Assembly (NCBI GenBank): GCA_040767195.1
Contig: JAXGPA010000004.1
Span: 1-64,000, forward strand
Length of the DNA: 64,000 bases
Reading direction: 5' to 3'
Source: Syntrophales bacterium
GTDB taxonomy: Bacteria; Desulfobacterota; Syntrophia; Syntrophales; UBA6807
The position numbers and the translations under genes are program-made. The notes beneath the pieces were generated by a model, which saw nothing but the letters and a program-made list of their open reading frames with translations, did no database searches and had not been told where the DNA came from. Below are positions 7,892 to 21,637 of the stretch, in pieces. Each line of letters starts with the position of its first letter. Position 1 is the stretch's first letter.

Positions 7892-8611
7892 ATGGCCGTC
7901 CTTACGTGGAAAAAGGAAGAAAACGTCGCCGTCATCACCATGACCAACGGTGAAAACCGGCACAATCCCGTCTTCGTCGCGGAAATGCTCCAGGCCCTCG
8001 ATGAAATCGAGGCGGACCGGGAAGTGACCGCCCTCGTGATCACCTCCGGTGACGAGAAGAACTGGTCCCAGGGCATCGACCTGGCCTGGCTCGTCGGGCG
8101 GAAGAACGCCGGCGATCTCGACGCCATCCGGCAGTTCCTCTACGGCATGAACAAGGTGTTCCGAAGGCTTCTCCTCTACCCCGTGCCCGTCATCGCCAGC
8201 ATCAACGGGCACGCCGCGGCGAACGGCGCCATCCTGGCCTGCGCCTGCGATTTCCGGTTCATGCGGGCCGACCGGGGCTTCTTTTTCTTTCCCGAGGTCA
8301 ACATCGACATTCCCTTCTTCCCGGGAATGATCGCCTTCCTCAAGAAGGCGATCCCGGAATACAAGTTCAACGAGATGGCCCTCACGGGCAACCGTTACGG
8401 CGCCGCCGAAATGGCGGCCCACCACGTCTTCCTGAAGGCCAGCGCCGGCGCGGAAGAGCTGAAGGCGGACACCATGGCCTTCGCCAGGGCCATGACGAAA
8501 AAGCGGGGGGTCTTCGGCGAGATGAAGCGTCGGATGCACCGGCAGATCGTCGAGATCATGGAAAAGGAAGACCCGAAGATCCTGGAGCCGCTTGCCATCG
8601 TGACGGATTGA
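7892..8611 (+). CDS. enoyl-CoA hydratase/isomerase (crotonase) family protein
   Basis: WSQGIDL, PVIASINGHAAANG, ACDFRFM, FPEVNI; GGAGG RBS. Confidence 0.88.
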   Translation: MAVLTWKKEENVAVITMTNGENRHNPVFVAEMLQALDEIEADREVTALVITSGDEKNWSQGIDLAWLVGRKNAGDLDAIRQFLYGMNKVFRRLLLYPVPVIASINGHAAANGAILACACDFRFMRADRGFFFFPEVNIDIPFFPGMIAFLKKAIPEYKFNEMALTGNRYGAAEMAAHHVFLKASAGAEELKADTMAFARAMTKKRGVFGEMKRRMHRQIVEIMEKEDPKILEPLAIVTD

Positions 8612-8711
8612 AGGCCCGCGCCCCCCTGCGGGGCCCGGGAAAAGAAGAGGGAAAGGCGGAAACCGCGACGGGGCGGGGCCGGGCGGCCCCGCCCCGTTTT
8701 GGGCGGTCATT

Positions 8712-9749
8712 TCATGACAGGACCGTGTCGAGCCGGCTGCCCACCTCGCGGGCTTCCCTCACGATCCGTTCCACCAGTTCGGCCACCGTGGGCTCGTCGT
8801 GGAGGAGGCCCGTCACCTGGCCCACGGGCAGGACGCCCTTCTCCGTGTCCCCGTCTTCCGTGGCCATCTGAAAAATCTTGAAGGCGTTGGCCATGTAGGC
8901 CAGCTGGTAGGCGTTTTTCCATCCCGACGCGAGGACCCCGAAAAACATTTTCCAGTAAGGGAGCTTCATCTGGGCGGCGATGTCCCGGGAATTGACGAAA
9001 GCCCCGATGACGTCGAATCCCTTCTTCAGGGCCCGCTTCGCTCCCTCCGTCTTCATGACCCGGCAGTAAAGGCCGTCGAAACGCTTCGAGTAATAGGTGT
9101 CCGTCACGTCCTTTTCCAGGGAGAGCCTCTTGTAATTCCCGTGGAGGGGGCTTTCCTTCGTCGTCATGAAGCGGGTTCCCATGGCAATGCCCTCGGCGCC
9201 CAGGGCCAGGGCGGCCATGAGTCCCCGGCCGTCGGCGATCCCGCCGGCGGCGATGACCGGGATTTCGAGGGCATCCGCGAGGCTCGGGACGAGGACCATG
9301 GAACTCACCGCCTCCCCGTGGGCGGCGGCCTCGTATCCCGTGGCGATGACCGCGTCGGTCCCGAACTGCTGCGCCCGGAGGGCGTGGCGGGCGCTGACCA
9401 CCGTGGCCACCACCTTTCCGCCGTAGGCGTGGGCGGCCCGGACGATCCAGTCCCCCTTCCCCAGGGCGAAGTTGATGACGGGGACCTTTTCCTCCAGGAG
9501 GACCTGGGCGTTTTCCCGGGCCCCCGGGAAAAGAAGGGTGGCGTTGGCCCCGAAGGGCTTGTCCGTCAGTTCACGGATCCTGCGGACGGCCTGCCGCGTT
9601 TCCTTGTCGTTCAGGGGTCCCGTGGCGAGAATCCCGAGCCCGCCGGCATTGGAGACGGCGGCGACCATTTCCGGGGTGCTGATCCAGCTCATCCCCGACA
9701 GAACGATGGGGTATTGAATTCCGAAGAGTTCCGTAACGCGCGTTTTCAT
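8712..9749 (-). CDS. nitronate monooxygenase/FabK-like flavoenzyme
   Basis: YPIVLSGM, AVSNAGGLG, TDKPFGAN, GYEAAAHG, PVIAAGGIADGRG, MGTRF, GQVTGL. Confidence 0.87.
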   Translation of the reverse strand: MKTRVTELFGIQYPIVLSGMSWISTPEMVAAVSNAGGLGILATGPLNDKETRQAVRRIRELTDKPFGANATLLFPGARENAQVLLEEKVPVINFALGKGDWIVRAAHAYGGKVVATVVSARHALRAQQFGTDAVIATGYEAAAHGEAVSSMVLVPSLADALEIPVIAAGGIADGRGLMAALALGAEGIAMGTRFMTTKESPLHGNYKRLSLEKDVTDTYYSKRFDGLYCRVMKTEGAKRALKKGFDVIGAFVNSRDIAAQMKLPYWKMFFGVLASGWKNAYQLAYMANAFKIFQMATEDGDTEKGVLPVGQVTGLLHDEPTVAELVERIVREAREVGSRLDTVLS

Positions 9750-9868
9750 TCTCTTCTCCGTTTTTGTCAAGAAAAGACATCATTGAATGGGGGGCTGTCC
9801 CTCCTTACCCGGCCTTCCTTCGAAAGCCGCCGGGCGCGGCGCCGCCGTGCCCCGGACGGGCCGGCCTC

Positions 9869-11530
9869 CTAGTCCTTGAAGACCGCGCCGGTGCTGGCCG
9901 ACGTGACGAGCCTGGCGTAGCGGCCCAGGTAGCCTCCCCGGACGGGCGGTTCCCAGGGTTTCAGGGCCTTTTTCCGTTTTTCCATTTCCCTGGCCGTAAT
10001 TTTGAGGTCCAGCCGCCTTCCCGGAATGTCGATGGCGATCCGGTCCCCTTCCCGGACCAGGGCGAGGGGGCCCCCTTCCGCCGCTTCCGGCGAGATGTGG
10101 CCGATGGCCGCTCCCCGGGTGCCGCCGCTGAACCGCCCGTCGGTGAGAAGGGCCACCGAGGTGTCGAGCCCCATGCCGGCGATGGCCGACGTGGGGGCGA
10201 GCATCTCCCGCATCCCCGGGCCGCCCCTGGGGCCCTCGTAACGGATGACAATCACGTCCCCGGGCTTGATCTCCCCCCCGAGGATCGCCTGGATCGCCTT
10301 CTCCTCGCCGTCGAAGACCCGGGCCCGGCCCTCGTTGACCATCATTTCCGGGGCCACAGCGGACTGCTTCACCACCCCTCCGTCGGGTGCTAGATTACCC
10401 CGGAGAATGGCGATGCCGCCCTCGGGCGAGTAAGGGGTTTTCGGGCTTCGAATCACCTCGCGGTCCCGGACCGCCGCGTTTTTCAGGTTTCTTTTCACAG
10501 GCAAAGCCGTCGCGGTCAGGCAGTCCCCCCGGATCAGGCCCAGTGCCTCGATTTCCTTCATCACGGCGGGGATGCCGCCGGCCCGGTGAAGGTCCTCCAG
10601 GTGGTGGGGCCCGGCGGGGCTCAGGTGGCAGAGGTTGGGCGTCTTCGCGCTGATCTCGTTGAAAAGGTCGAGATCGAGGACGATACCCGCCTCCCGGGCG
10701 ATGGCGGGGAGGTGAAGAACCGTGTTGGTGGAGCACCCGAGGGCCATGTCCACGGCGATGGCATTCCGGAAAGCGTCGGGGGTGGCGATGTCCCGGGGGC
10801 GGATGTCCCTTTTCAGGAGCGTCATGACGGCCATCCCGGCCTGCTTCGCCAGGCGGCGCCGGGCCGCGTGAACGGCGGGAATGGTCCCGTTTCCCGGAAG
10901 GCCGAGGCCGATGGCCTCGGTGAGGCAGTTCATGGAATTGGCGGTGAACATGCCCGAACAGGACCCGCAGCCCGGGCAGGCCTCGTCTTCCAGGGCCGCC
11001 ATGTCCCGTTGCCGGAGCTTGCCCGCCTTGACCTTTCCCACGCCCTCGAAAACGCTGATGAGGTCCACCGTGGCGCCCCCGGCGAGACCGGCCATCATGG
11101 GGCCGCCGCTCACGACAACCGTCGGGATGTTGAGGCGGAGCGCCGCCATGAGCATGCCCGGGACGATCTTGTCGCAGTTGGTCACCATGACGAGGCCGTC
11201 GAAGGGGTGGGCCATGGCCATGATCTCGATGGAATCGGCGATGAGTTCCCGGCTCGCCAGGGAGTATTTCATGCCTTCGTGGCCCATGGCGATGCCGTCG
11301 CAGACGCCGATGGCGGGAAATTCCACGGGCGTGCCCCCGGCCATGCGGATGCCCGCCTTGGCATCCTGGGCCAGCAGGCCGAGGTGGACATGGCCGGGGA
11401 TGATCTCGTTGGCCGAGTTGACCACCCCGATGAGGGGTCTCCCCAGTTCCTCGTCGGTGTAGCCCATGGCCTTGAACAACGACCGGTGGGGGGCCCGCTC
11501 GAGGCCCTTTTTCATGATGTCGCTTCTCAT
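9869..11530 (-). CDS. ilvD: dihydroxy-acid dehydratase
   Basis: [84 protein letters not shown]. Confidence 0.96.
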
Positions 11531-11609
11531 GGTCCCTCCTGCAGTGCTTCCTCGTTTACCGCAATGGAAATCACGAAACTTGTAAATCGTCCGAGAAAAG
11601 ACTATTCCA

Positions 11610-11735
11610 GGCGGCTTTGTAAAAAGCGCCGGAGGCAAGGCGCCCGAAGCCCGAGGAATGAGGCGTACCTGTTGGTACGCCGCAATGACGAGGAAAGAAG
11701 GGCAACGCCGCCTGTGGACTTTTTACGAAGTCGTC
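11610..11735. repeat. intergenic palindromic-ended repeat (REP/MITE-like), copy 1
   Basis: Ends are GGCGGCTTTGTAAAAAG and CTTTTTACGAAGTCGTC; central GGCGTAC-N-GTACGCC hairpin; homologous to 33960..34084 and 52042..52094. Confidence 0.85.
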
Positions 11736-11738
11736 AAA

Positions 11739-12791
11739 CTATTTTTTCCGCCGTTCCGGTCTCAATTCCCGGAGAACCGCGCCGGCCTGCCACATCTCCA
11801 TGTTCCGCATCTCCGACAGTTCCCGGTCCAGGCGTTCCCGGTAGTCCGGGGCGCTGTTCGCTTCCAGGACGATGGCCGTCTCCTTCCCCGTTTTCACCCG
11901 GTCGTAGAGTTCGTCGAACACGGGGAGCACGGCCTCCCGGAACCGCCCCTTCCAGTCCAGGGCGCCCCGCTGGGCGGTGGTGCTGCAGTTGGCGTACATC
12001 CAGTCCATGCCGTTCTGGCCCACCAGGCCGATGAGGCTCTGGGTCAGTTCCTCCACCGTCTCGTTGAAGGCCTCGCTGGGGCTGTGCCCGTTCTTCCGGA
12101 GCGTCTGGTACTGGGCCTCCATGATGCCCGCCAGGGCCCCCATGAGAACGCCCCGCTCACCCGTCAGGTCGCTGTAGACCTCGTTCTCGAAGGTCGTCGG
12201 GAAGAGGTAACCGGAACCGATGGCGATGCCCAGGGCGACGGCCCGCTCCTTCGCCCGGCCCGTGGCGTCCTGAAAAACGGCGACGCTCGAGTTGATGCCG
12301 CTCCCGGCGATGAAGTTCGCCCGCACCGTCCGGCCCGCCCCCTTGGGGGCCACGAGAATGACGTCAACGTCCGCCGGGGGGACGACGCCCGTCAGTTCCT
12401 TGTAGGTGATGGAAAACCCGTGGGAGAAATAGAGGGCCTTCCCTCTCGTCAAAAAAGGCTTGACCTTCGGCCACAGGGCCTTCTGTCCCGCGTCGGAAAG
12501 CATGTACTGGAGGATGGTGCCCCGCTTCGCCGCCTCCTCGATGGGAAAAAGGGTCTCCCCGGGGACGAAGCCGTCATCGAGGGCCTTCTTCCAGGTGGCC
12601 CCGCCCTCGCGCTGGCCGATGATGACCCGGACCCCGTTGTCCCGGAGATTCTGGGCCTGTCCCTGCCCCTGGACGCCGTAACCCAGGACGGCCACCGTCT
12701 CGTCCTTCAGGACTTCCCGGGCCTTTTCAAGAGGAAACTCTTCCGCCGTGATGACTTCTTCCTCGATGCCGCCGATGGTGATTTTTGCCAT
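11739..12791 (-). CDS. ilvC: ketol-acid reductoisomerase
   Basis: LGYGVQGQGQAQNLRD, FSHGF, VAPKG, SDLTGERGVLMG, EAFNETVEE, MDWMYANCSTTAQRGALDW; AAGGAG RBS. Confidence 0.95.
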   Translation of the reverse strand: MAKITIGGIEEEVITAEEFPLEKAREVLKDETVAVLGYGVQGQGQAQNLRDNGVRVIIGQREGGATWKKALDDGFVPGETLFPIEEAAKRGTILQYMLSDAGQKALWPKVKPFLTRGKALYFSHGFSITYKELTGVVPPADVDVILVAPKGAGRTVRANFIAGSGINSSVAVFQDATGRAKERAVALGIAIGSGYLFPTTFENEVYSDLTGERGVLMGALAGIMEAQYQTLRKNGHSPSEAFNETVEELTQSLIGLVGQNGMDWMYANCSTTAQRGALDWKGRFREAVLPVFDELYDRVKTGKETAIVLEANSAPDYRERLDRELSEMRNMEMWQAGAVLRELRPERRKK

Positions 12792-12946
12792 GGATTTTCT
12801 CCTTTGTGAATGTCTTTGAATGCCTGTCCCGCGCACGTCAAAAAAGCGGGTCCGAAGGATCGGCCTGCGAGGTCCGCCGTCCCGGCGGTAACCCGAAGGG
12901 CCGGAGGGGACCCGACGGCCTGCCGGTGGAACCCTCGACCACCGCC

Positions 12947-13423
12947 CTACCTGAGAAAAATAACGCCGGACCGGCTCAAGTCCTCGATTCCCAGGGGCGT
13001 AAGCCCCTTCAGGACCCAGTCGATCTCCTCGAGGGTGCCGGTGACCTCGAGAATACAGTGATCCGGCTCCATCCGAAGGGTCCGGCAGTGAAAATTCTCG
13101 ATATCTTTCTTAATCTTTTCCCGGTTTTCCTCCCGGAAGGGGATCCGGACGAGGACCATTTCCCTGAGAATGGTCCTGTCGTTCCCGGCGATGTTGAATT
13201 CCAGCACATCGACGAGTTTCCGGAGCTGTTTTTCGATCTTGCTCACCGTGGCCGTGTTTCCCTTCGTCACCAGGGTGATCTTGGTCATGTCCGGGTTGAG
13301 GGTCACGTTGGCGCTGATGGATTCGATATTGAAGCCCCTGCCGCTGAAGATCCCGGCGATCCGGGCCAGCACGTCGGGCTTGTTGTTCACCAGAAGGGTC
13401 ATCTTGTGTTCTTTGATTTCCAT
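12947..13423 (-). CDS. ilvN: acetolactate synthase small (regulatory) subunit, copy 1, with Asp at the Gly14-equivalent site
   Basis: ACT domain NNKPDVLARIAGIFSGRGFNIESI, KQLRKLVDV, REMVLV, SRSG. Confidence 0.9.
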   Translation of the reverse strand: MEIKEHKMTLLVNNKPDVLARIAGIFSGRGFNIESISANVTLNPDMTKITLVTKGNTATVSKIEKQLRKLVDVLEFNIAGNDRTILREMVLVRIPFREENREKIKKDIENFHCRTLRMEPDHCILEVTGTLEEIDWVLKGLTPLGIEDLSRSGVIFLR

Positions 13424-13440
13424 TGTTTGTTCTCCCGCTC

Positions 13441-15144
13441 CTATCCTTTTTTACGTCCCAGGTCCATCTCCGTCAGGGAGGCACCGGGCCCCACCATGGG
13501 GTAGACCCCCTCCTCGGGGTCGACGGCCATGTCCATGAAGACCGGCCCCGGGGTTTCGAGCCCCTGTTTCAGGACCGCTTCCATCTCCTCCGGCCGGGTC
13601 GCCCGGAGCCCCGTGGCCCCGTAGGCCTGGGCGAGTTTCACGAAATCGGGGACCTGGCTGATGTTCGTGTGGGAATACCGCCGCCCGTAGAAGATCTCCT
13701 GCCATTGCCGGACCATGCCGAGGAACCCGTTGTTCAGGATGACGACCTTCACGGGAATGTTGTAGTTCACCACCGTGGCCAGCTCCTGGATGTTCATCTG
13801 GATGCTCCCGTCGCCGGCGATGTCCAGGACCGTCCGGTCCGGGCAGGCCACCTGGGCCCCGATGGCGGCGGGAAAGCCGTACCCCATGGTCCCCAGGCCC
13901 CCCGACGTGAGAAACTGGTTGGGCCGGTTGAAACGGTAGAACTGGGCCGCCCACATCTGGTTCTGCCCCACCTCGGTGGCCACCACGGCCTCGCCGCCGG
14001 TGAGCCGGTAAAGGGTTTCGATGACGCACTGGGGCTTGATCATGTCCCCGGAATCGTAGCAGAGCGGGGCGTATTCCCGCCACTTGTCGATCTGCCCGAG
14101 CCACGCGCCCAGATCATCCGCGGACAGGACGTTCTTCTCCTGCTCGAGCATCTGGGTCAGCTGGTGGAGGGCCGTCCGGCTGTCGCTCACGATGGGGAGG
14201 TCGACGAGGACGTTCTTGTTGATCGATGCGGGGTCGATGTCGATGTGAACGATTTTCGCCTGGGTGGCGAAATCGGAAAGCCGGCCCGTCACCCGGTCGT
14301 CGAACCGGACCCCGATGGCGATGATGAGATCGGCATGGCTCACGGCCATGTTGGCGTAGTAGGTTCCGTGCATCCCCGGCATGCCGAGCCACAGGGGGTC
14401 CGTTCCCGGGTAGGCCCCCAGCCCCATGAGGGTCGAGGTGATGGGAATGCCCGTGGCCCGGACGAATGTCCGGAGCTCCTCGGAGGCCCGCCCTAAAATG
14501 ATGCCCCCGCCGGTGAGAATGACGGGGCGCTTCGCTTTCCGGAGCATTCCGACGACCTGCTGCAGGGCCTCCGTGTCGGGAAGATAGGAGGGCTCCCGAA
14601 GGCAGGCTGAAGGGATTCCCGAGGGCTCGTAGACCGCCGTGCCCTGGGCGACGTCCTTGGGAAGGTCCACCAGGACCGGGCCGGGACGGCCGCACCGGGA
14701 GAGGTAGAAAGCCTCCTTGACAGTCCTGGCGAGGTCCGCCGTCCGCCGGACGATGTAGTTGTGCTTCGTGATGGGCCGCGTGATGCCCGTGATGTCCGCC
14801 TCCTGGAAGGCGTCGGACCCGATGAGGGCCGTGGAGACCTGGCCGGTGAAGACGACGATGGGGATGGAGTCCATGTAGGCCGTGGCGATGCCCGTGACCG
14901 TGTTGGTCGCCCCGGGACCGGATGTCACCAGGCAGACCCCCGTTTTACCCGACGCCCGGGCATACCCGTCCGCCGCGTGGGTGGCCCCCTGCTCGTGGCG
15001 GACAAGGATGTGCCGGATCTCGCCCTTGTGCAGCTCGTCGTAAATATCGAGAACGACACCGCCGGGATACCCGAAAATGGTGTCCACACCTTCCTCAAGA
15101 AGGGCCTTGATGAGTATCTGCGCTCCCTTCAGTTCCACGTTCAC
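13441..15144 (-). CDS. ilvB: acetolactate synthase large subunit, copy 1 (Ile-attenuated)
   Basis: FGYPGG, RHEQGATHAADGYAR, TSGPGATN, GRPGPVLVDLPKD, RFDDRVTG, SGGLGTMG, GDGS...NNGFLGMVRQWQ; GTG start after AGGAGG. Confidence 0.95.
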   Translation of the reverse strand: MNVELKGAQILIKALLEEGVDTIFGYPGGVVLDIYDELHKGEIRHILVRHEQGATHAADGYARASGKTGVCLVTSGPGATNTVTGIATAYMDSIPIVVFTGQVSTALIGSDAFQEADITGITRPITKHNYIVRRTADLARTVKEAFYLSRCGRPGPVLVDLPKDVAQGTAVYEPSGIPSACLREPSYLPDTEALQQVVGMLRKAKRPVILTGGGIILGRASEELRTFVRATGIPITSTLMGLGAYPGTDPLWLGMPGMHGTYYANMAVSHADLIIAIGVRFDDRVTGRLSDFATQAKIVHIDIDPASINKNVLVDLPIVSDSRTALHQLTQMLEQEKNVLSADDLGAWLGQIDKWREYAPLCYDSGDMIKPQCVIETLYRLTGGEAVVATEVGQNQMWAAQFYRFNRPNQFLTSGGLGTMGYGFPAAIGAQVACPDRTVLDIAGDGSIQMNIQELATVVNYNIPVKVVILNNGFLGMVRQWQEIFYGRRYSHTNISQVPDFVKLAQAYGATGLRATRPEEMEAVLKQGLETPGPVFMDMAVDPEEGVYPMVGPGASLTEMDLGRKKG

Positions 15145-15188
15145 ACCTCCTGATCGGATCCGCCGGGCTTGACAAGCCCGCTTTTCTC

Positions 15189-15220
15189 AAAAAAAAACCG
15201 CTACCCTCGGGGTAACGGTT
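15189..15220 (-). terminator. attenuator terminator upstream of ilvB copy 1
   Basis: AACCGTTACCC-CGA-GGGTAGCGGTT stem running into a 9-nt U tract. Confidence 0.88.
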
Positions 15221-15245
15221 CCTGTTTCGTCCTCTCGCCGGAAGG

Positions 15246-15335
15246 CTAAACCATCACCCCGCCCCTTCTGAAGGGAATAATTATACCGATGATCGCAATT
15301 TCCAACTGCTTCGGGGATGGGGAAAACACTGCCAT
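15246..15335 (-). CDS. Ile-rich attenuator leader peptide MAVFSPSPKQLEIAIIGIIIPFRRGGVMV
   Basis: 29 aa, absent from the ORF track; 6 Ile in 8 codons; its 3' end is complementary to the 5' arm of the downstream terminator. Confidence 0.85.
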   Translation of the reverse strand: MAVFSPSPKQLEIAIIGIIIPFRRGGVMV

Positions 15336-15364
15336 AGCCACCGGGAATCCTATTCGATTCCGGT

Positions 15365-15394
15365 ATCCCTAACAGCATCAGGCGGTCTTGTCAA
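15365..15394 (-). promoter_or_regulatory. putative internal promoter for the Ile leader/ilvB1
   Basis: Perfect TTGACA, 17 nt spacer, then TAGGGAT (weak -10, preceded by TG); about 30 nt upstream of the leader ATG. Confidence 0.5.
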
Positions 15395-15404
15395 GATGAT
15401 ATTT

Positions 15405-15905
15405 TCAGGCCGGGCCTCCCTTCTTTTCCTTGGGCAGTGCGATGATGCCCGTTCTCGCCGCTTCGCGGATGCCCAGGTCCCGAAAATACTGGAGAAGCGT
15501 TTCCGTTTCCTCGCTCGTCCCCACGGCCTGAAAAACGGCGTAATCGTCTTTCATGAAAATCAGCTTGCCGTTGAAAAGCTCCATGGCCTTGAGAATATCG
15601 GCCCGGCGCTCCTGGGGAAAATCCAGGCCCAGGAGGGCCACTTCCCGCTGCAGGGACCGGGACGGGGCGAGTTCCTCTACCTCGATGACGTCCACGAGCC
15701 TGTCCAGCTGCTTCCGGACCTTGTCGGTGAAATTCGAGTTGGCCCGGCTCATGAGGGTGATCCGGGACGTGTCCGGGTCGAGGGTGGGCGCCACGCAGAG
15801 GCTTTCGATGTTGTAACCGAGCCTTCCGAAAATCCCGGACACCCGGGAGAGAACGCCCGGCTTGTTCTGAACGAGGAGTGACAGGATGTGTTCTTCGCCA
15901 TTCAT
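15405..15905 (-). CDS. ilvN: acetolactate synthase small (regulatory) subunit, copy 2, with the canonical Gly
   Basis: QNKPGVLSRVSGIFGRLGYNIESL, KQLDRLVDVIEV, REVALL, ARTG. Confidence 0.9.
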   Translation of the reverse strand: MNGEEHILSLLVQNKPGVLSRVSGIFGRLGYNIESLCVAPTLDPDTSRITLMSRANSNFTDKVRKQLDRLVDVIEVEELAPSRSLQREVALLGLDFPQERRADILKAMELFNGKLIFMKDDYAVFQAVGTSEETETLLQYFRDLGIREAARTGIIALPKEKKGGPA

Positions 15906-16076
15906 TGTACTCGCGTCTCCTTTTGCTTGCTCATCGTCTTGTGATAGGGTCTTTTACCGCCCCCGCCATGGGGGGCGCGGCGACGCTTCGAAACCGGTGT
16001 TTCCACCGGTACGGACCCGGGACCGGTCCGCTCCCGCCCGGAACCCAAGGCGGGGCGGCCCTTCGGGCCGCCGCCG

Positions 16077-17753
16077 TCAGTCCGATCTCCCGTAGATCAT
16101 TTCCATGTTCGATTTTCCGGGCGGGATAATGGGATAGACATAGTCCCCGGGAGGGACCATGACTTCCAGGAGATAGGGCCCGTCACTTGCGGCGAGGCGC
16201 TCGATGGCCCCCTCGGGCTTTTCCGCCCCGACCCGCTCCGCTTCCAGGCCGAAGCCCCGGGCCACGGCGACGATGTCCGTTTTTTCCCCGAGCTGGCAGG
16301 CGCTGAGCCGGGACCCGTAAAAAAGGTCCTGGATCTGGCGGATCATCCCCAGGTGGCCATTGTTGAAGACGATGATCTTGACGGGCACCTGGTAATAGCT
16401 GATGGTGGCCAGCTCCTGGATGTTCATGAAAAACCCGCCGTCGCCGGTGAAAGACACGACGTTCCGCTTCGGGTTTCCCACCTTGGCCCCGATGGAGGCG
16501 GGAAGGCTGAAGCCCATGGTCCCCATGCCGCCGCTGGTGAGGAGCCCCCGGGGGGACTTCGATTTCCAGGACCGGACCGTCCAGATCTGGTTCAGTCCCA
16601 CGTCGGCGACGGCGATGGCCGTCGGGGACAGGGCCTCCTGGACCAGGCCGATGAGCCGCCCGGGCAGGCCGCAGCCGTTGTAGCTGTTCTTCGCCTCCAG
16701 GGACTCCCGCTCCTTCTGGATCCTGTCTTTCCAGTCGCCCCTTTCCTTTTCGTCGACGAGGCCGATGAGCCCGGAAAGGGCTTTCCGGATGTCGCAGACG
16801 AGAGCCAGGTCCGCCTTGATGTTCTTGCCGATGGACGTGGGGTCGATGTCGATCTGGGCGATCGTCGCCAGGGGAGCGAACTCCTCCACCTTGGAGGTGC
16901 TCCGGTCGGTGAAACGGGTCCCCACGGCGAGGATGAAGTCGGACTGGTGGATCATCCGGTTGGCCAGTTCGAACCCATGGGTGCCGATGAATCCCAGGTT
17001 GAGGCCGTTGGCGATGCACACGGCTCCCACGCCCATCATGGTGCTCACGAAGGGGATGTTCCCCCGTTCGATGAGTTCCGTGATGAGCTGGCAGGCACCG
17101 CTGAGCTTGACGCCCCCGCCGATGATGAGGATGGGCCTTTCCGCCTGGTTCAGGGCCTGGGCGATGCGGTTCAGGATGCCTTCGTCCAGGGCGTGGCCGT
17201 TCCCCGTCTTCTTCATGGCCGGTTCCTCCGGCCTGATTTCCGCCTCGGGGCAGCGGCCCGCCAGGACATTCCGCGGAAGGTCCACGAGGACCGGCCCCGG
17301 CCGGCCCTGCTTGGCCAGGGAAAAAGCCTGCTTGAGGGTCGTCCGCATGTCCCTGGGGTCCCGGACAAGGAAGCTGTGCTTCGTGATGGGCATGGTGATC
17401 CCGATGATGTCCGTCTCCTGGAAGGCGTCGGTCCCCAGGAGGTCCGTGGGAACCTGGCCCGTGAGGGCCACCACGGGGGAGGAGTCCATGTAGGCCGTGG
17501 CGATCCCCGTGACGAGGTTCGTCGCCCCCGGCCCCGAGGTAGCCAGGCAGACCCCCACCTTTCCCGTGGCCCGGGCGTAACCGTCGGCGGCATGGGCGGC
17601 GGCCTGCTCGTGACGCATCAGGTAATGCCGGATCGTGTGGTCGATGAGTCCGTCATGAATGGGCAGGGTATTTGCCCCGGGATAGCCGAAGATGGCGTCC
17701 ACCCCTTCTTCCTTCAACGTCTCCAGAAGGATCTGTGCACCGTTTCTTTCCAT
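16077..17753 (-). CDS. ilvB: acetolactate synthase large subunit, copy 2 (Val-attenuated)
   Basis: FGYPGA, RHEQAAAHAADGYAR, TSGPGATN, GRPGPVLVDLP, SGGMGTMG, GDGG...NNGHLGMIRQIQ; AGGAG RBS before ATG 17753. Confidence 0.94.
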   Translation of the reverse strand: MERNGAQILLETLKEEGVDAIFGYPGANTLPIHDGLIDHTIRHYLMRHEQAAAHAADGYARATGKVGVCLATSGPGATNLVTGIATAYMDSSPVVALTGQVPTDLLGTDAFQETDIIGITMPITKHSFLVRDPRDMRTTLKQAFSLAKQGRPGPVLVDLPRNVLAGRCPEAEIRPEEPAMKKTGNGHALDEGILNRIAQALNQAERPILIIGGGVKLSGACQLITELIERGNIPFVSTMMGVGAVCIANGLNLGFIGTHGFELANRMIHQSDFILAVGTRFTDRSTSKVEEFAPLATIAQIDIDPTSIGKNIKADLALVCDIRKALSGLIGLVDEKERGDWKDRIQKERESLEAKNSYNGCGLPGRLIGLVQEALSPTAIAVADVGLNQIWTVRSWKSKSPRGLLTSGGMGTMGFSLPASIGAKVGNPKRNVVSFTGDGGFFMNIQELATISYYQVPVKIIVFNNGHLGMIRQIQDLFYGSRLSACQLGEKTDIVAVARGFGLEAERVGAEKPEGAIERLAASDGPYLLEVMVPPGDYVYPIIPPGKSNMEMIYGRSD

Positions 17754-17784
17754 GTGTCTTCTCCTGTTTTTTGTATCCGCAATT

Positions 17785-17820
17785 AAAAAAGCCGCATCTT
17801 TCATCGAGGTGCGGCTTTTT
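17785..17820 (-). terminator. second (distal) terminator T2 of the Val attenuator
   Basis: AAAAAGCCGCACCT-CGATGAA-AGATGCGGCTTTTTT hairpin with U tract. Confidence 0.8.
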
Positions 17821-17823
17821 CCG

Positions 17824-17860
17824 AAATAAAAAAGCCGCGGGCCTTTCGGGGCCCGCGGCT
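17824..17860 (-). terminator. attenuator terminator T1 upstream of ilvB copy 2
   Basis: 11-bp stem AGCCGCGGGCC-CCGAAA-GGCCCGCGGCT followed by TTTTTATTT. Confidence 0.9.
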
Positions 17861-17880
17861 CCTTTTCGATCTAACGTTTT

Positions 17881-17967
17881 CTAAGGCAGAGCAGCGGTCC
17901 CCGTCTTTACGACGACTACGACTACAGCCACGGCTACCGTGCTTGCCAGGGAATGTCTGTCAGCCAT
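17881..17967 (-). CDS. Val-rich attenuator leader peptide MADRHSLASTVAVAVVVVVVKTGTAALP
   Basis: 28 aa, absent from the ORF track; 8 Val codons, 6 of them consecutive; AGGTG RBS; 3' part complementary to the T1 5' arm. Confidence 0.9.
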   Translation of the reverse strand: MADRHSLASTVAVAVVVVVVKTGTAALP

Positions 17968-18040
17968 TTTCACACCTGCCGGCGTTGGGAAACCCTTTCG
18001 AGGCCTTCCCGCCTGCCTCCCGTGTAATCTTGTGAGGGAA

Positions 18041-18070
18041 ATCACTACAGGACTTCTTTTTTTCTGTCAA
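18041..18070 (-). promoter_or_regulatory. putative promoter of the Val leader/ilvB2
   Basis: TTGACA-17 nt-TAGTGAT, the same layout as the promoter at 15365..15394. Confidence 0.55.
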
Positions 18071-18216
18071 GAAAAAAATGTCCGTCCCCCGGAAAAATTT
18101 CCCGGAACCATTCCGGGGTGATTTTCGGTCTCGAAAACGGCACCTCATGGGATCCCGATTCTAACCGGGGAACCTGTGACCGTCACCGGGGATTTTACGT
18201 TTCAAGAAACAGGGCC

Positions 18217-20688
18217 TCACAAGGGCGATTCGTCCGGCGTATCGTCCTCATCCTCTTCAGGTGAGAGGTCTTCCGCCCTGTTCATGTCGAGCCGGAAAAA
18301 GCTTCTTTTCCCTTCACGGTCCACGTCGGCGTACGCCGTGGGCTCCGTCCCTTCCAGGTAGCACGCGAAAACCCCGCTCTCCGAGGCCGGCGGCGCCAGG
18401 AGCCCCGTCTTGGGGTCGATCTTCACGAACACCAAGCCGGGCGGGGGGGAAAAGGATTCGACGGGACGGCCTTCCAGGACTTTTTCCATGAAATAGAGAA
18501 ATACGGGGCTCGCCGCCCTCGACCCGGTCTCGTACTTCCCCAGGGGCTTCAGATCGTCGAAACCCACCCAGACACCGGCGACGAGGGAGGGGGTGAACCC
18601 GACGAACCAGGCGTCGTTCAGGTCATTCGTCGTGCCCGTTTTTCCGGCCACGGGCCGGCCCAGGGCCCGGACGCGCCAGCCTGTTCCCCGATCCACCACG
18701 TCCTGCAGGATGTGGGTGGTCACGTAAGCGATCCGCGGGTCCATGACCTGCTCCGCCTCGGGTCCGTTTTCCTCGAAAACATGGCCCGTCCGGTCGACGA
18801 TTTTCCGGATCATGAAGGGTTTGACACGCTTCCCGTAGTTGGCCAGTACGCCGAAGCCCCGGACCATTTCCTCCAGGGTCACCCCGGAGCTGCCGAGGGC
18901 CATGGAAAGATCCCTGGCGAGGGGAGACTGAATGCCCATGTTGGCCACGTAATCGGCGGCGTAATCGATGCCGATGTCCTTCAGGACCTTGATGGTGACG
19001 AGATTTCGCGACCGGATGAGGGCCGTCCGGAGCGTCGTGGGACCGTAAAATTTTTCCTCGTAGTTGCGGGGTTTCCAGGTGCTGTCACGGAGGATGTCCC
19101 GGAAGATGATGGGCGTGTCCATGACGACGGTCGAGGGGGTGAGCCCGTTGTCGAAAGCGGCGGCGTAAATGAAGGGCTTGAAAGCCGACCCCGGCTGCCG
19201 CCTCGACTGGGTGGCCCGGTTGAACTCGCTTCTCCGGTAATCCCGCCCGCCCACGAGGGCCTTGATCTCCCCCGTCTCGGCGGACATGGCGAGAAGCGCC
19301 CCCTGGACTTCCGGTTCCTGCTCCAGGGCCACGGTGAACCGCGCTTTCCCGTCCTCTCCTACTTCCATGGAAAGGAGTCGGACCAGGATGACGTCACCTT
19401 CCTGGAGGACGTCCCCGGGGTCCCGGACCGTCGCCTGGCCGGACGCCACGGTGGGATCGGGCCTGCGCGCCCAGGCCATGTTTTTCAAGGGAAGGGTCCC
19501 CTCACATCGCCCGATCCGGACGGCAACCCGTTTTTCCCGGGAGTCGACGACGGTCACCAGTCCCCGGATCACATCCAGGCCGGCGGGAATCCCCTGGGAG
19601 AAATCGTCGGGAAGGTTCTCGTCCAAAGCGGCGAGAAAGGCCTCGTATTCTTCCGGTTTCAGTTTCCCCAGGGGGCCCCGGTACCCCTGCCTCTTGTCGA
19701 GTTCCCGCAACCCTCTCGCCACGGCGTCCCGGGCCGCTCCCTGCATGGCCGGGTCGAGGGTCGTGTACACCTCCAGGCCTTCCCGGTACAGAACCTCGCT
19801 TCCGTACTTTTCCTGGACATACCGCCGGACGAGTTCCGTGAAATAGGGAGCCAGCTTTTCCTTTTCCCGCGTTTTTCTGAGGACGACCCCGGCCGCCAGG
19901 GCCTCATCCCTCTCCGCCCCGGTAATGAATCCCTCTACGGCCATGCGGTTCAGGACGTATTCCATCCGGTTTCGGGCCCTTTCGGGGTGCAGGTACGGGG
20001 AATATCGGCTCGGCGCTTTCGGGAGACCGGCCAGGAGGGCCGACTCGCCCAGGGTCAATTCCCGGGCCTTCTTGCCGAAGTACCGCTCCGCCGCCGCCTC
20101 GACACCATAGGTTCCGTGGCCGAGATAGATCTGGTTGAGGTACAGGTGGAGAATTTCGTACTTGGTCAGGTAACGGTCGATCCGCCAGGCGAGAACGGCT
20201 TCCTTGAGTTTCCTGAGGTAACTTCTCTCGGGCGTCAGGAAGAGGGATTTGGCCACCTGCTGGGTGATGGTGCTGCCGCCCTGAACGATGGACCCCGCTT
20301 CGAGGTTCTTGAGAAATGCCCGGGCGATGCTCTGGACGTCCACCCCGCCGTGGCGGAAGAAACGGGAGTCCTCGGCGGCCACGAAGGCCTGGATCACCGA
20401 GCGGGGAAGCTCGGTGATGTCGATTACCTTGCGGTCTTCCAGGAAGAACTCGTCGATGAGTTCGTTCCCCTCGCCGTAAACCCGGGTGATGATGCTCGGC
20501 CGGTAATCCTTCAGGGAAGAAATGCTCGGCAACCCCTGGACGATGTAGTAAAAAAAGCCCCCCGCCAGGGCGGCGCCGGCCAGGGCCAGGAGAAAAAAGG
20601 CCACGAGAATCCTGGCAAGGACCCCTCCCCTCTCCCCGGGGAACCCCTTCCTTCCCCTTTCCTTAAGGGTGTCATTCCCGTGAATCAT
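18217..20688 (-). CDS. mrcA: penicillin-binding protein 1A (transglycosylase-transpeptidase)
   Basis: N-terminal TM anchor, AEDSRFF, GGSTITQQVAK, YLNQIYLG, QPGSAFKP (SxxK), SRN, GKTGT. Start taken at ATG 20688; exact start uncertain. Confidence 0.93.
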   Translation of the reverse strand: MIHGNDTLKERGRKGFPGERGGVLARILVAFFLLALAGAALAGGFFYYIVQGLPSISSLKDYRPSIITRVYGEGNELIDEFFLEDRKVIDITELPRSVIQAFVAAEDSRFFRHGGVDVQSIARAFLKNLEAGSIVQGGSTITQQVAKSLFLTPERSYLRKLKEAVLAWRIDRYLTKYEILHLYLNQIYLGHGTYGVEAAAERYFGKKARELTLGESALLAGLPKAPSRYSPYLHPERARNRMEYVLNRMAVEGFITGAERDEALAAGVVLRKTREKEKLAPYFTELVRRYVQEKYGSEVLYREGLEVYTTLDPAMQGAARDAVARGLRELDKRQGYRGPLGKLKPEEYEAFLAALDENLPDDFSQGIPAGLDVIRGLVTVVDSREKRVAVRIGRCEGTLPLKNMAWARRPDPTVASGQATVRDPGDVLQEGDVILVRLLSMEVGEDGKARFTVALEQEPEVQGALLAMSAETGEIKALVGGRDYRRSEFNRATQSRRQPGSAFKPFIYAAAFDNGLTPSTVVMDTPIIFRDILRDSTWKPRNYEEKFYGPTTLRTALIRSRNLVTIKVLKDIGIDYAADYVANMGIQSPLARDLSMALGSSGVTLEEMVRGFGVLANYGKRVKPFMIRKIVDRTGHVFEENGPEAEQVMDPRIAYVTTHILQDVVDRGTGWRVRALGRPVAGKTGTTNDLNDAWFVGFTPSLVAGVWVGFDDLKPLGKYETGSRAASPVFLYFMEKVLEGRPVESFSPPPGLVFVKIDPKTGLLAPPASESGVFACYLEGTEPTAYADVDREGKRSFFRLDMNRAEDLSPEEDEDDTPDESPL

Positions 20689-21574
20689 CCGATTCCGCCG
20701 CTTTCTCCGCCGTTCCGGTCTTTTCCGCCTCCCCCTGCCCTTCTTCCCCTTCCGTCTTCTTTTCCTCCTGTTCCGGTGCCGCCTCTTCCCCCGGTTCCCC
20801 CCCGGGGCGCTCCGGCGCGGCCTCTTCCGGTGAGCCGGCCTCTTCCTCTTTTTTCCCCTCGGCTTTCCGGACGATCCAGACGCTGATTTCAAATAGGATC
20901 ACGATGGGGATCGCCATGAGAACCTGGGTAACCACGTCGGGCGGGGTCAGGATGGCGGCACCGATGAAGGCCAGGAGGATGGCGTATTTCCTGTTCCTGA
21001 CAAGCTTGCGCGAGTCGACGAGACCGATCTTGGCCAGGAAGAACATGAAGATGGGAAGCTCGAAGACGATTCCGAAGGCCAGGAGGACTTTCATGGAAAA
21101 GGACAGAAACTCCCGCAGCGACAGCATGGGCCGGATGAACTCGGTGCCGAAGGCCAGAAAAAAGCGGAACCCGAAGGGAAAAACGACGAAGTAGGCGAAT
21201 ATGGCCCCCCCGACGAAGAAGGCCGTCGAGAAAATGACGAAGGGGATCATGTAGCGCTTCTCTTTTTCATAGAGCCCCGGGGAGATGAATTTCCACACCT
21301 GGTAAAGGATGTAGGGGCTGGAAACGAAAATGGCGGCGAAGAAGGAAACCTTCAGGTAGGTGAAAAAGGCCTCGGGAAGGCTCGTGAAGATCATGGACCC
21401 CTTGTCGGGAAGGATGTCCTTCAGGGGGAGGGTGAGAATCCCGAAAAGCCTTTCCTTGAAAAAATAACAGCCGACGAAGGAAACGGCGACGGCGGTGAAA
21501 ATCCGGATCAGCCGGGTCCTCAGTTCCTCCAGGTGAGAGGTGAACGGCATCTTTTCATTGTCGGGGTCTGTCAT
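20672..21574 (-). CDS. tatC: twin-arginine translocase subunit TatC
   Basis: HLEELRTRL, YQVWKFISPGLYEKEK, FGIVFELP, AILTPPD; acidic C-terminal tail. Confidence 0.95.
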   Translation of the reverse strand: MTDPDNEKMPFTSHLEELRTRLIRIFTAVAVSFVGCYFFKERLFGILTLPLKDILPDKGSMIFTSLPEAFFTYLKVSFFAAIFVSSPYILYQVWKFISPGLYEKEKRYMIPFVIFSTAFFVGGAIFAYFVVFPFGFRFFLAFGTEFIRPMLSLREFLSFSMKVLLAFGIVFELPIFMFFLAKIGLVDSRKLVRNRKYAILLAFIGAAILTPPDVVTQVLMAIPIVILFEISVWIVRKAEGKKEEEAGSPEEAAPERPGGEPGEEAAPEQEEKKTEGEEGQGEAEKTGTAEKAAESDDSRE

Positions 21575-21637
21575 GTTTCGCACGGAACAAAGGGGCTGGG
21601 TTCGATTCCGGGGAGCCGGGAGAGAATGCCCGATGCC

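What the first reader, a model, noticed from the sequence alone, without database searches (positions are those of the whole stretch)
12947..18070. Two tandem AHAS isozymes split by amino acid: a Val-controlled ilvBN and an Ile-controlled ilvBN, with matching enzyme residues
Seen in sequence: the minus-strand order is promoter, Val leader, T1/T2, ilvB2, ilvN2, promoter, Ile leader, terminator, ilvB1, ilvN1, ilvC, ilvD. The Val-gated pair has IlvB MIRQIQ and IlvN NKPG. The Ile-gated pair has IlvB MVRQWQ and IlvN NKPD. Established: in E. coli AHAS II, Trp464 confers the preference for 2-ketobutyrate (Ile branch), and AHAS I has Gln there. IlvH G14D removes valine feedback. Enterobacterial ilv leaders sense mixed amino acids (Leu/Val or Leu/Ile/Val). 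Inference: one isozyme makes acetolactate and is shut off by valine at both transcription and enzyme level, while the other makes the Ile precursor, ignores valine and is induced by Ile shortage. Three independent layers agree, which makes coincidence unlikely. I do not know of this arrangement being described for this lineage, but I cannot check the literature.
Basis: partly seen in the sequence, partly recalled or inferred. Interest (0 to 1): 0.92.

Follow-up and report, generated by a model that had tools for sequence, protein, structure and literature searches.

The report
Valine- and isoleucine-gated AHAS isozymes
This bacterium and many of its relatives carry two versions of the first shared enzyme of branched-chain amino-acid synthesis, one probably switched on by valine shortage and one by isoleucine shortage, a division of labour like that of the E. 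coli isozymes but apparently evolved separately.

Summary
Observation confirmed. The minus strand carries a Val leader with two terminators, ilvB2N2, an Ile leader with one terminator, then ilvB1N1CD. The pattern recurs across Syntrophales. B2 lacks the Trp464-equivalent (94 of 94) and its small subunit keeps Gly14 (89 of 89). B1 has Trp (100 of 100) and Asp14 (98 of 98). Both attenuators have conserved, covarying antiterminators.

The "three independent layers" claim is overstated. B1/N1 and B2/N2 are each one clade, so the residues count as one event each. Where B2 was not found, the Trp/Asp14 enzyme sits under a Val-rich leader (47 of 50), and two genomes have B2 alone. Neither enzyme is therefore branch-exclusive.

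Leader codons do follow gene content. Ile codons appear in the Val leader when B2 is absent (48 of 52 against 4 of 24). Two or more Leu codons occur only with leuA (31 of 54 against 0 of 26). Few independent events underlie these counts.

Best reading: a convergent, sharper version of E. coli AHAS I/II. Enzyme properties are inferred, not measured. No paper was found in five searches. This scan reported the same system earlier on other genomes (e1-7445193, e1-7676330).

The parts
18041..18070 (-). Probable sigma70-type promoter of the Val leader (TTGACA at 18070-18065; -10 weak in this genome)
   Evidence: Sequence; promoter-like site in 79 of 91 B2 leaders against 20.1 expected from shuffles; not listed by the generic scan
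17881..17967 (-). Val leader peptide ORF, 28 aa; 8 Val codons at 17937-17908; 5' arm of the antiterminator at 17902-17889
   Evidence: antiterminator helix of 12 pairs, 97.2% of cells paired in 36 sequences
17828..17861 (-). Terminator T1 of the Val attenuator; its 5' arm pairs alternatively with the leader
   Evidence: (duplex -28.1 against antiterminator -25.6 kcal/mol)
17785..17820 (-). Second terminator T2; its 5' arm can pair with the freed 3' arm of T1, so one switch can disable both terminators
   Evidence: adjacent T2 in 77 of 91 B2 leaders; relay helix 98.3% of cells paired
16077..17753 (-). ilvB2, AHAS large subunit, 558 aa; Ile474 at the Trp464-equivalent site, Thr258 at the conserved Met of GMHG
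   Evidence: TIGR00118 634.8 bits over cut-off 538.35
15405..15905 (-). ilvN2, AHAS small subunit, 166 aa; Gly17 and Ala39 (IlvH Gly14, Ala36) kept
   Evidence: TIGR00119
15365..15394 (-). Probable internal promoter of the Ile leader (TTGACA at 15394-15389; -10 weak in this genome)
   Evidence: Promoter-like site in 27 of 32 tandem Ile leaders against 3.8 expected
15246..15335 (-). Ile leader peptide ORF, 29 aa; 6 Ile codons at 15299-15276; 5' arm of the antiterminator at 15260-15249
   Evidence: antiterminator 92.0% of cells paired in 31 sequences, 4 pairs with changes on both sides
15189..15221 (-). Intrinsic terminator of the Ile attenuator
   Evidence: terminator helix 99.4% of cells paired
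13441..15144 (-). ilvB1, AHAS large subunit, 567 aa; Trp479 at the Trp464-equivalent site
   Evidence: TIGR00118 821 bits
12947..13423 (-). ilvN1, AHAS small subunit, 158 aa; Asp17 and Asn39 in place of IlvH Gly14 and Ala36
   Evidence: TIGR00119
11739..12791 (-). ilvC, ketol-acid reductoisomerase (serves both branches)
   Evidence: TIGR00465
9869..11533 (-). ilvD, dihydroxy-acid dehydratase (serves both branches)
   Evidence: TIGR00110

Best explanation
Two AHAS isozymes share the first common step with a quantitative, not absolute, bias. Each has its own ribosome-stalling transcription attenuator. When Val-tRNA is short (Leu-tRNA too in leucine-making relatives), the ribosome stalls on the Val run. 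The 3' part of the leader then pairs with the 5' arm of T1, the freed 3' arm of T1 captures the 5' arm of T2, and ilvB2N2 is transcribed. B2 lacks the Trp that favours 2-ketobutyrate, so it makes mostly acetolactate, and N2 keeps it valine-inhibited. When Ile-tRNA is short, the second attenuator opens ilvB1N1CD from an internal promoter. B1 keeps the Trp and prefers 2-ketobutyrate. N1 (Asp14, Asn/Asp36) should not bind valine, so Ile synthesis continues when valine is plentiful. Where one isozyme or one leader was lost, the remaining leader usually came to sense the other amino acids too. Shown from sequence: anatomy, conservation, alternative helices, residue states and trees. Inferred from homologues: substrate bias, valine sensitivity and the response to starvation.
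For: Residues: B1 Trp 100 of 100 and B2 non-Trp 94 of 94 scored; N1 Asp 98 of 98, N2 Gly 89 of 89, outgroups Gly 45 of 45. N1 also has Asn/Asp at Ala36 (98 of 98) while N2 keeps Ala (86 of 86). Leaders: B2 Val>Ile in 87 of 91; B1 Ile>Val in 46 of 47 leaders from B2-bearing genomes. The four B2 exceptions are family f21, where B1 has no leader of its own (gap 41-73 nt) and the one leader is Ile+Val. At least one Ile codon in the Val-type leader: 4 of 24 with B2 (f21 left out) against 48 of 52 without. At least 2 Leu codons: 31 of 54 with leuA against 0 of 26 without. Terminators follow 91 of 91, 48 of 49 and 48 of 48 leaders, against 5 of 60 shuffles. Antiterminator and terminator helices pair in 92-98% of cells and beat slid controls. 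Control codons are enriched in GTA (539 of 775) and ATA (91 of 331), against 0 of 147 and 1 of 141 in this window's ilv genes. PMC5727371 (passages): Trp is the 2-ketobutyrate site, Trp to Leu loses the preference, and changing the small-subunit Gly gives valine insensitivity. PMC8709942 (passages): C. glutamicum G20D/I21D/I22F and A42V/A89V are listed among changes made to relieve feedback.
Against: No enzyme or expression measurement exists. B1N1 with Trp and Asp14 is the only biosynthetic AHAS found in 50 genomes, and G016 and G037 have only B2 under a leader without Ile codons, so each enzyme probably serves both branches. G010, G012 and G031 have an Ile leader on B1 with no B2 found, and G053 has B2 plus a B1 under a Val-rich leader. 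Only 2 Ile-to-Val leader changes occur on the B1 tree, too few for a test; the leuA link gives 4.7 pairs the same way and 0 opposite of 12, median p 0.06. The published G14D and G20D variants that I saw carry further changes. Equilibrium folding with the ribosome masked still favours the terminators, so antitermination needs co-transcriptional kinetics. ilvC and ilvD lie behind the Ile attenuator in tandem loci. No 2-ketobutyrate source was found in this assembly.
Confidence: 0.68

Rival explanations
1. Only transcription is divided. The two attenuators sense different amino acids, but the enzymes are near-equivalent. Trp loss and Asp14 are clade-level traits with little effect on flux, and the pair simply acts as an OR gate that raises total AHAS under either shortage.
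For: Each residue state is one event per clade. Each enzyme occurs alone in some genomes. Asp14 is kept under Val leaders.
Against: Non-Trp is fixed in 94 of 94 B2 although the residue itself varies (Ile 58, Met 24, Leu 10, Tyr 1, Val 1), which fits selection against Trp. N1 carries two substitutions at feedback sites. One mixed leader would give an OR gate without a second enzyme, as in f21 and the B1-only lineages.
Confidence: 0.2
2. B2 has a changed role beyond the loss of 2-ketobutyrate preference, for example low activity, another acceptor, or an AHAS I-like advantage at low pyruvate. The Val leader controls it for that reason.
For: B2 sits on a long branch (0.81) and has further fixed changes near the cofactor and substrate sites: Gly27 to Ala 85 of 91, Met256 to Thr 83 of 91, Gln392 to Leu, Met395 to Ile and Ser445 to Gly each 91 of 91 (B1 numbering). 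PMC5727371 reports AHAS I as most useful when pyruvate is low.
Against: The catalytic motifs (RHE, FQE, DR, DVG, GDG, NN) are kept in 91 of 91 B2. B2 passes TIGR00118, has a canonical small subunit, and lies directly before ilvC in 23 loci.
Confidence: 0.08
3. Asp14 does not abolish feedback but changes the ligand, so that B1N1 is inhibited by isoleucine (or by another effector) instead of being unregulated.
For: An unregulated sole AHAS in 50 genomes would be unusual. N1 keeps Asn11, Asn29 and Ile30 in 98 of 98.
Against: The C. glutamicum G20D/I21D/I22F variant resists Val, Ile and Leu alike (PMC8709942). E. coli IlvM has Glu at this place and AHAS II is valine-insensitive.
Confidence: 0.1

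Closest known systems
E. coli AHAS I (ilvBN) with the ivbL attenuator
   Same: Non-Trp large subunit (LVHQQQ), small subunit with Gly (NHPG) and a Val/Leu leader with 9 Val (read from NC_000913.3). Valine-inhibited and without 2-ketobutyrate preference. B2N2 works like this.
   Different: B2 is not in the AHAS I clade, which forms a separate group. N2 is a long IlvH-type subunit of about 165 aa, not about 96 aa. The residue is Ile/Met/Leu, not Gln. The attenuator has two relayed terminators.
E. coli AHAS II (ilvGM) with the ilvL attenuator of ilvGMEDA
   Same: Trp large subunit (MVRQWQ), small subunit without the Gly (FNPE), a leader with Ile codons, and shared downstream ilv genes in the same unit. 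Valine-insensitive with the highest 2-ketobutyrate preference.
   Different: ilvL mixes Leu, Val and Ile codons, while the B1 leader is almost Ile-only (mean Ile 6.7, Val 0.8, Leu 0.3 in 10 codons). N1 is a full-length IlvH-type subunit with point changes, not the short IlvM. B1 nests among the vertically inherited enzymes of the phylum. An intact IlvG was not in my trees.
Single-operon ilvB leader-peptide attenuators (Corynebacterium glutamicum ilvBNC)
   Same: Short leader with branched-chain codons controlling ilvBN(C) by attenuation (PMC8709942 passages). The B1-only Syntrophales resemble this.
   Different: One enzyme and one mixed leader, with feedback kept. No Rfam family matched the leaders here at a meaningful score.
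Engineered feedback-resistant small subunits (E. coli IlvH G14D/S17F; C. glutamicum IlvN G20D/I21D/I22F and A42V/A89V)
   Same: Asp at the Gly14 site and a change at the Ala36 site.
   Different: Here the changes are natural and fixed across an order (98 of 98), and their effect is untested.

Membership tests
Biosynthetic AHAS (large + small subunit) | Large subunit over the TIGR00118 cut-off with catalytic and ThDP motifs | tested here: met
   634.8 and 821 bits against 538.35; motifs in 91 of 91 B2 and 99-101 of 101 B1
Biosynthetic AHAS (large + small subunit) | Adjacent ACT-domain small subunit | tested here: met
   TIGR00119 144.8 and 129.9 bits against 56.9
Biosynthetic AHAS (large + small subunit) | Forms acetolactate and acetohydroxybutyrate | not testable with these tools
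   Needs an enzyme assay
Ribosome-mediated (leader-peptide) transcription attenuator | Short ORF with a run of cognate codons upstream of the biosynthetic gene | tested here: met
Ribosome-mediated (leader-peptide) transcription attenuator | Intrinsic terminator and a mutually exclusive antiterminator that overlaps the leader's 3' part | tested here: met
   equilibrium folds still favour the terminator
Ribosome-mediated (leader-peptide) transcription attenuator | Read-through rises on starvation for the cognate amino acid | not testable with these tools
   Only assembled RNA contigs were available
E. coli-type AHAS I (IlvBN) clade | Large subunit groups with E. coli IlvB and has Gln at the Trp site | tested here: not met
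   B2 lies outside the LVHQQQ/LVQQQQ clade and has Ile/Met/Leu
E. coli-type AHAS I (IlvBN) clade | Short single-ACT small subunit (about 96 aa) | tested here: not met
   N2 is 166 aa; scores 51.2 on NF006036 (cut-off 128) and 156.8 on NF008864 (cut-off 119)
E. coli-type AHAS II (IlvGM) | Short IlvM-type small subunit and large subunit over the PRK08978 cut-off | tested here: not met
   N1 is 158 aa, 37.8 bits on NF008362 (cut-off 68); B1 676.8 on NF006524 (cut-off 738)
E. coli-type AHAS II (IlvGM) | Valine insensitivity and high 2-ketobutyrate preference | not testable with these tools
   Only the residue markers could be read

The most novel reading that the evidence does not exclude
Syntrophales split the Val and Ile pathways almost completely at their first shared step: B2N2 is a nearly pyruvate-exclusive, valine-inhibited acetolactate synthase and B1N1 a feedback-free enzyme with strong 2-ketobutyrate preference under Ile-only control. 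The leaders are re-tuned codon by codon as genes are gained or lost (Ile codons added when B2 or the second leader is lost; Leu codons kept only with leuA), so a leader's codon make-up reads out the pathway demand on its enzyme. A weaker side possibility for this genome, where no 2-ketobutyrate source was found: B1 makes 2-ketobutyrate itself, as reported for E. coli AHAS II (10.1101/2025.08.26.672309, abstract only); I put that part below 0.1.
Probability: 0.3. Interest if true: 0.72.

Novelty: new variant of a known kind. Interest (0 to 1): 0.52.

Why it matters
Why bacteria keep several AHAS isozymes has been argued almost entirely from enterobacteria. This order offers an independent case with natural controls: genomes with both isozymes, with either one alone, and with one merged leader. 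That makes the branch-balancing idea testable by comparison and by a few assays. It also supplies natural candidates of practical use: a non-Trp AHAS family that may make valine or leucine precursors with little isoleucine by-product, and a full-length small subunit that may be naturally feedback-resistant. The link between leader codons and gene content, if it holds, is a clear example of an RNA switch evolving to match metabolic demand. The basic logic is textbook E. coli, which limits the surprise.

Tried and rejected
Rfam scan of 9000-19000: 5 matches, all far below gathering score, taken as chance. Generic promoter scan: did not list either promoter. Equilibrium folding with ribosome masks: gave terminators in every case, so it could not show the switch. 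RNA data: all 17 listed runs are assembled contigs; the 4 laid cover intergenic and neighbouring DNA too, so depths and contig ends say nothing usable about read-through. First terminator test was too permissive and had no control; replaced. Idea that B2 is a recent duplicate of B1 within the order: the tree holding them together was rejected (p-AU 0.005, 43 rows, quick tree, long-branch caveat). Idea that B2 came from the AHAS I clade: not seen. Idea that Asp14 marks Ile-gated copies: rejected. Independent-pairs test for B2 presence against leader type: 5 pairs, cannot reach significance. leuB search (TIGR00169 at E 1e-90) was patchy, missing in many genomes that have leuA, and was not used. 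Homologue search with B2 listed only close relatives (63% identity or more) and gave no donor. Paper search for point-mutant names returned mostly unrelated papers. No structure or complex prediction was run.
Full report
OBSERVATION. The minus strand reads: TTGACA box at 18070, a 28-codon leader with 8 Val in 10 codons (17967-17881), two terminator hairpins (17861-17828, 17820-17785), ilvB2, ilvN2, a second TTGACA box at 15394, a 29-codon leader with 6 Ile in 8 codons (15335-15246), one terminator (15221-15189), ilvB1, ilvN1, ilvC, ilvD. All six genes pass their NCBIfam cut-offs. The two large subunits are 45% identical, the small ones 39%, and the assembly (98.8% complete, 13 contigs) holds no other copy. 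A genome-wide scan found no other short ORF with at least 6 Val or 5 Ile in 10 codons before a terminator. B2 Ile474 aligns with the Gln of E. coli AHAS I and with the Leu of PDB 7STQ (that this entry is the plant Trp574Leu mutant is recalled). N1 Asp17 aligns with IlvH Gly14.

DISTRIBUTION. All 80 loci kept by a search with B2 over one genome per species are 62-74% identical to it; most titles name Syntrophales, Syntrophaceae or Syntrophus, and others are broader or differ (Deltaproteobacteria, Proteobacteria, one Caldisericales). Their B2 proteins fall in one clade with those of the order. I combined these loci with regions from G-handle genomes of the order and 49 large subunits from the rest of the phylum. 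Identical proteins were counted once. At the Trp site, B1 has Trp in 100 of 100 scored and B2 has a non-Trp residue in 94 of 94 (Ile 58, Met 24, Leu 10, Tyr 1, Val 1); 9 and 2 partial proteins could not be scored. At Gly14, N1 has Asp in 98 of 98, N2 Gly in 89 of 89 and outgroup subunits Gly in 45 of 45 scored. N1 also replaces Ala36 with Asn or Asp in 98 of 98, while N2 keeps Ala in 86 of 86. By the offset of six it matches C. glutamicum Ala42, which appears as A42V/A89V among feedback-relieving changes in PMC8709942 (passages). One foreign-looking ilvB of G136 (L155) was left out of the leader counts.

LEADERS. B2 has a leader in 91 of 92 cases with enough upstream DNA (the miss, L147, has one further upstream), and Val exceeds Ile in 87 of 91. 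The four exceptions are family f21, where B1 follows N2 after only 41-73 nt with no leader and the single upstream leader mixes Ile and Val. In genomes that have B2, B1 has a leader in 47 of 55 cases, and Ile exceeds Val in 46 of 47. The eight misses are four f21 genes, one degenerate leader (G030), two loci where none was found (L074, L124) and one piece of a fragmented gene. The one exception is G053. A whole-genome search with B2 over 62 chosen genomes found only B1-type copies in 50, among them assemblies of 2 to 10 contigs (G021, G050, G061, G113, G121, G157). There the Trp/Asp14 enzyme lies under a Val-rich leader in 47 of 50 leaders; G010, G012 and G031 keep an Ile leader. G016 and G037 (96-98% complete) have B2 alone before ilvC and ilvD, under a leader without Ile codons.

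RNA SWITCHES. A terminator follows the leader in 91 of 91 B2 leaders, 48 of 49 Ile leaders and 48 of 48 Val-type B1 leaders, against 5 of 60 shuffled controls. A second adjacent terminator occurs in 77 of 91, 0 of 48 and 34 of 48. That shared feature, and the shared 3' peptide motif, suggest that most Val leaders on B1 are the B2 attenuator left behind after loss of B2N2 and the Ile leader (inference). In the window the leader-T1 duplex is -25.6 against -28.1 kcal/mol for T1, the T1-T2 relay -17.5 against -19.2 for T2, and the Ile antiterminator -25.1 against -16.9. On 36 of the Val regions, the antiterminator plus relay pair in 97.6% of cells with 9 two-sided changes (0 of 500 shuffles; slid controls 44-59%), and the terminators in 96.3%. 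On 31 of the Ile regions the figures are 92.0% with 10 two-sided changes and 95.9%. These structures were drawn from the same sequences and the rows are related, so the shuffles overstate. Per-leader, the antiterminator duplex beat 95% of shuffles in only 51 of 91, 36 of 48 and 32 of 48. Equilibrium folding with the ribosome masked still gave terminators. Control codons favour GTA (539 of 775) and ATA (91 of 331), which the window's ilv genes avoid (0 of 147, 1 of 141).

INDEPENDENCE. B2 (91 rows) and B1 (101 rows) are each one clade, as are N1 and, weakly (81), N2. The residue layers therefore reflect one event each, and Asp14 travels with B1 whatever its leader. B1 nests among the phylum's ordinary Trp/Gly14 enzymes, which mostly show no branched-chain leader. 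B2 lies outside on a long branch, apart from the AHAS I clade, and a tree joining B1 and B2 is rejected (p-AU 0.005; long-branch caveat). On the B1 tree the leader changes from Ile to Val twice, both times where B2 was not found; f21 is a third rearrangement.

CODONS FOLLOW GENE CONTENT. In 80 genomes searched for leuA (11 further handles left out), I counted codons in a 12-codon control window of the Val-type leader. Two or more Leu codons occur in 31 of 54 genomes with leuA and 0 of 26 without. At least one Ile codon occurs in 4 of 24 B2-bearing genomes (f21 left out) and 48 of 52 B1-only genomes. Kinship inflates these counts. Tree-independent pairs for the Leu link gave 4.7 the same way, 0 opposite and 7.3 unchanged of 12, median p 0.06; with a threshold of one Leu, 5.8 against 1.1, median p 0.125. 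The window's own pure-Val leader fits, as leuA was not found in its genome. This is the best new evidence that the leaders are working sensors, but it is suggestive rather than proven.

MECHANISM. Val shortage stalls the ribosome on the Val run and frees the leader's 3' part, which takes T1's 5' arm; T1's 3' arm then takes T2's 5' arm, and ilvB2N2 is read. Ile shortage opens ilvB1N1CD from the internal promoter. PMC5727371 (passages) states that the Trp is the 2-ketobutyrate site, that Trp to Leu loses the preference, that AHAS I has Gln, and that changing the small-subunit Gly gives valine insensitivity. G14D with S17F is used as a feedback-resistant IlvH (10.1101/2020.12.01.406439, one passage), and PMC13158618 (passages) names the three residues from Gly14 as the most important. 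So B2N2 should favour acetolactate and be valine-inhibited, and B1N1 should favour the Ile precursor and ignore valine. Both steps are inferences from homologues. Since each enzyme also occurs alone, the bias cannot be absolute. B2 has further fixed changes, among them Thr for the Met of GMHG in 83 of 91 (that this is AHAS II Met250, a substrate-site residue, is recalled).

OPEN POINTS. ilvC and ilvD serve both branches yet lie behind the Ile attenuator in tandem loci; the N1-ilvC gap is 40 nt or less in 41 of 97 loci, while ilvC follows N2 in 23. No ilvA, cimA, leuA, leuB, leuC or methionine gamma-lyase was found in this assembly, although cimA passes its cut-off in 67 of 71 genomes of the order. 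This may be an assembly gap or another route to 2-ketobutyrate.

KNOWN SYSTEMS. Read from E. coli K-12: ilvBN has a Val/Leu leader, Gln and Gly; ilvGM has a Leu/Val/Ile leader, Trp and no Gly. PMC8896088 (passages) confirms attenuation of both operons and their opposite substrate preferences. The Syntrophales pair works like AHAS I and II but belongs to neither by tree, small-subunit type or profile score. What differs is the Ile-only leader, feedback loss by point changes in a full-length subunit, the relayed double terminator and the tandem layout. Five literature searches (listings only) showed no paper on this arrangement. The library lacks most subscription journals, including the comparative attenuation surveys (Vitreschak et al. 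2004, seen only as a reference entry), so absence from print is not established. No supplements were read. Earlier notes of this scan describe the same system (e1-7445193, e1-7676330), the double terminator (e1-2313892) and the Ile leader (e1-2138363) on other genomes; they are unchecked and not counted as support.

VERDICT. Real, conserved and coherent; a new variant of a known kind. Interest 0.52.

Noticed in passing
G000 whole assembly: No ilvA, cimA, leuA, leuB, leuC or methionine gamma-lyase found, so the source of 2-ketobutyrate and of leucine is open. The same-genus genome G001 shows the reverse: cimA present, no ilvB found.
   Followed up: partly
G000:C6:53790 (minus strand): Short ORF with three Trp codons in a row followed by a terminator, a likely Trp leader-peptide attenuator. 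The downstream gene was not checked.
   Followed up: no
window 12791-12947: The 155-nt gap between ilvN1 and ilvC is GC-rich, with a T run and a TTGACG hexamer; one RNA contig of a related strain lacks most of it. A separate ilvCD promoter or processing site is possible.
   Followed up: no
L222-L225, L230-L231 (other families of the phylum): Extra AHAS copies, AHAS I-like in L222-L225, also carry Val/Leu-rich leaders, while the ordinary Trp copies mostly show none. Val/Leu leaders on second copies seem to recur.
   Followed up: partly
L264-L266, L063, L070, L158-L159 (family f13): Several B1-only genomes have leaders whose 3' peptide ending resembles the Ile-type leaders but whose control codons are Val-rich, suggesting recoding of the Ile attenuator instead of inheritance of the Val one. 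The RNA was not aligned.
   Followed up: partly
L116: ilvB1 is in pieces behind an intact Ile leader while ilvB2N2 is whole; assembly error or decay was not told apart.
   Followed up: no
L221 (G178): Tandem ilvBN-ilvBN outside the order, both copies with Trp and near-identical small subunits and no leader seen: a plain duplication without this division.
   Followed up: no
window 7892-9770 and 18217-21583: Flanking genes look unrelated: an enoyl-CoA hydratase-like and a nitronate monooxygenase-like ORF downstream, a penicillin-binding protein 1A-like and a TatC-like ORF upstream (names from my reading of the translations, not from a search).
   Followed up: no
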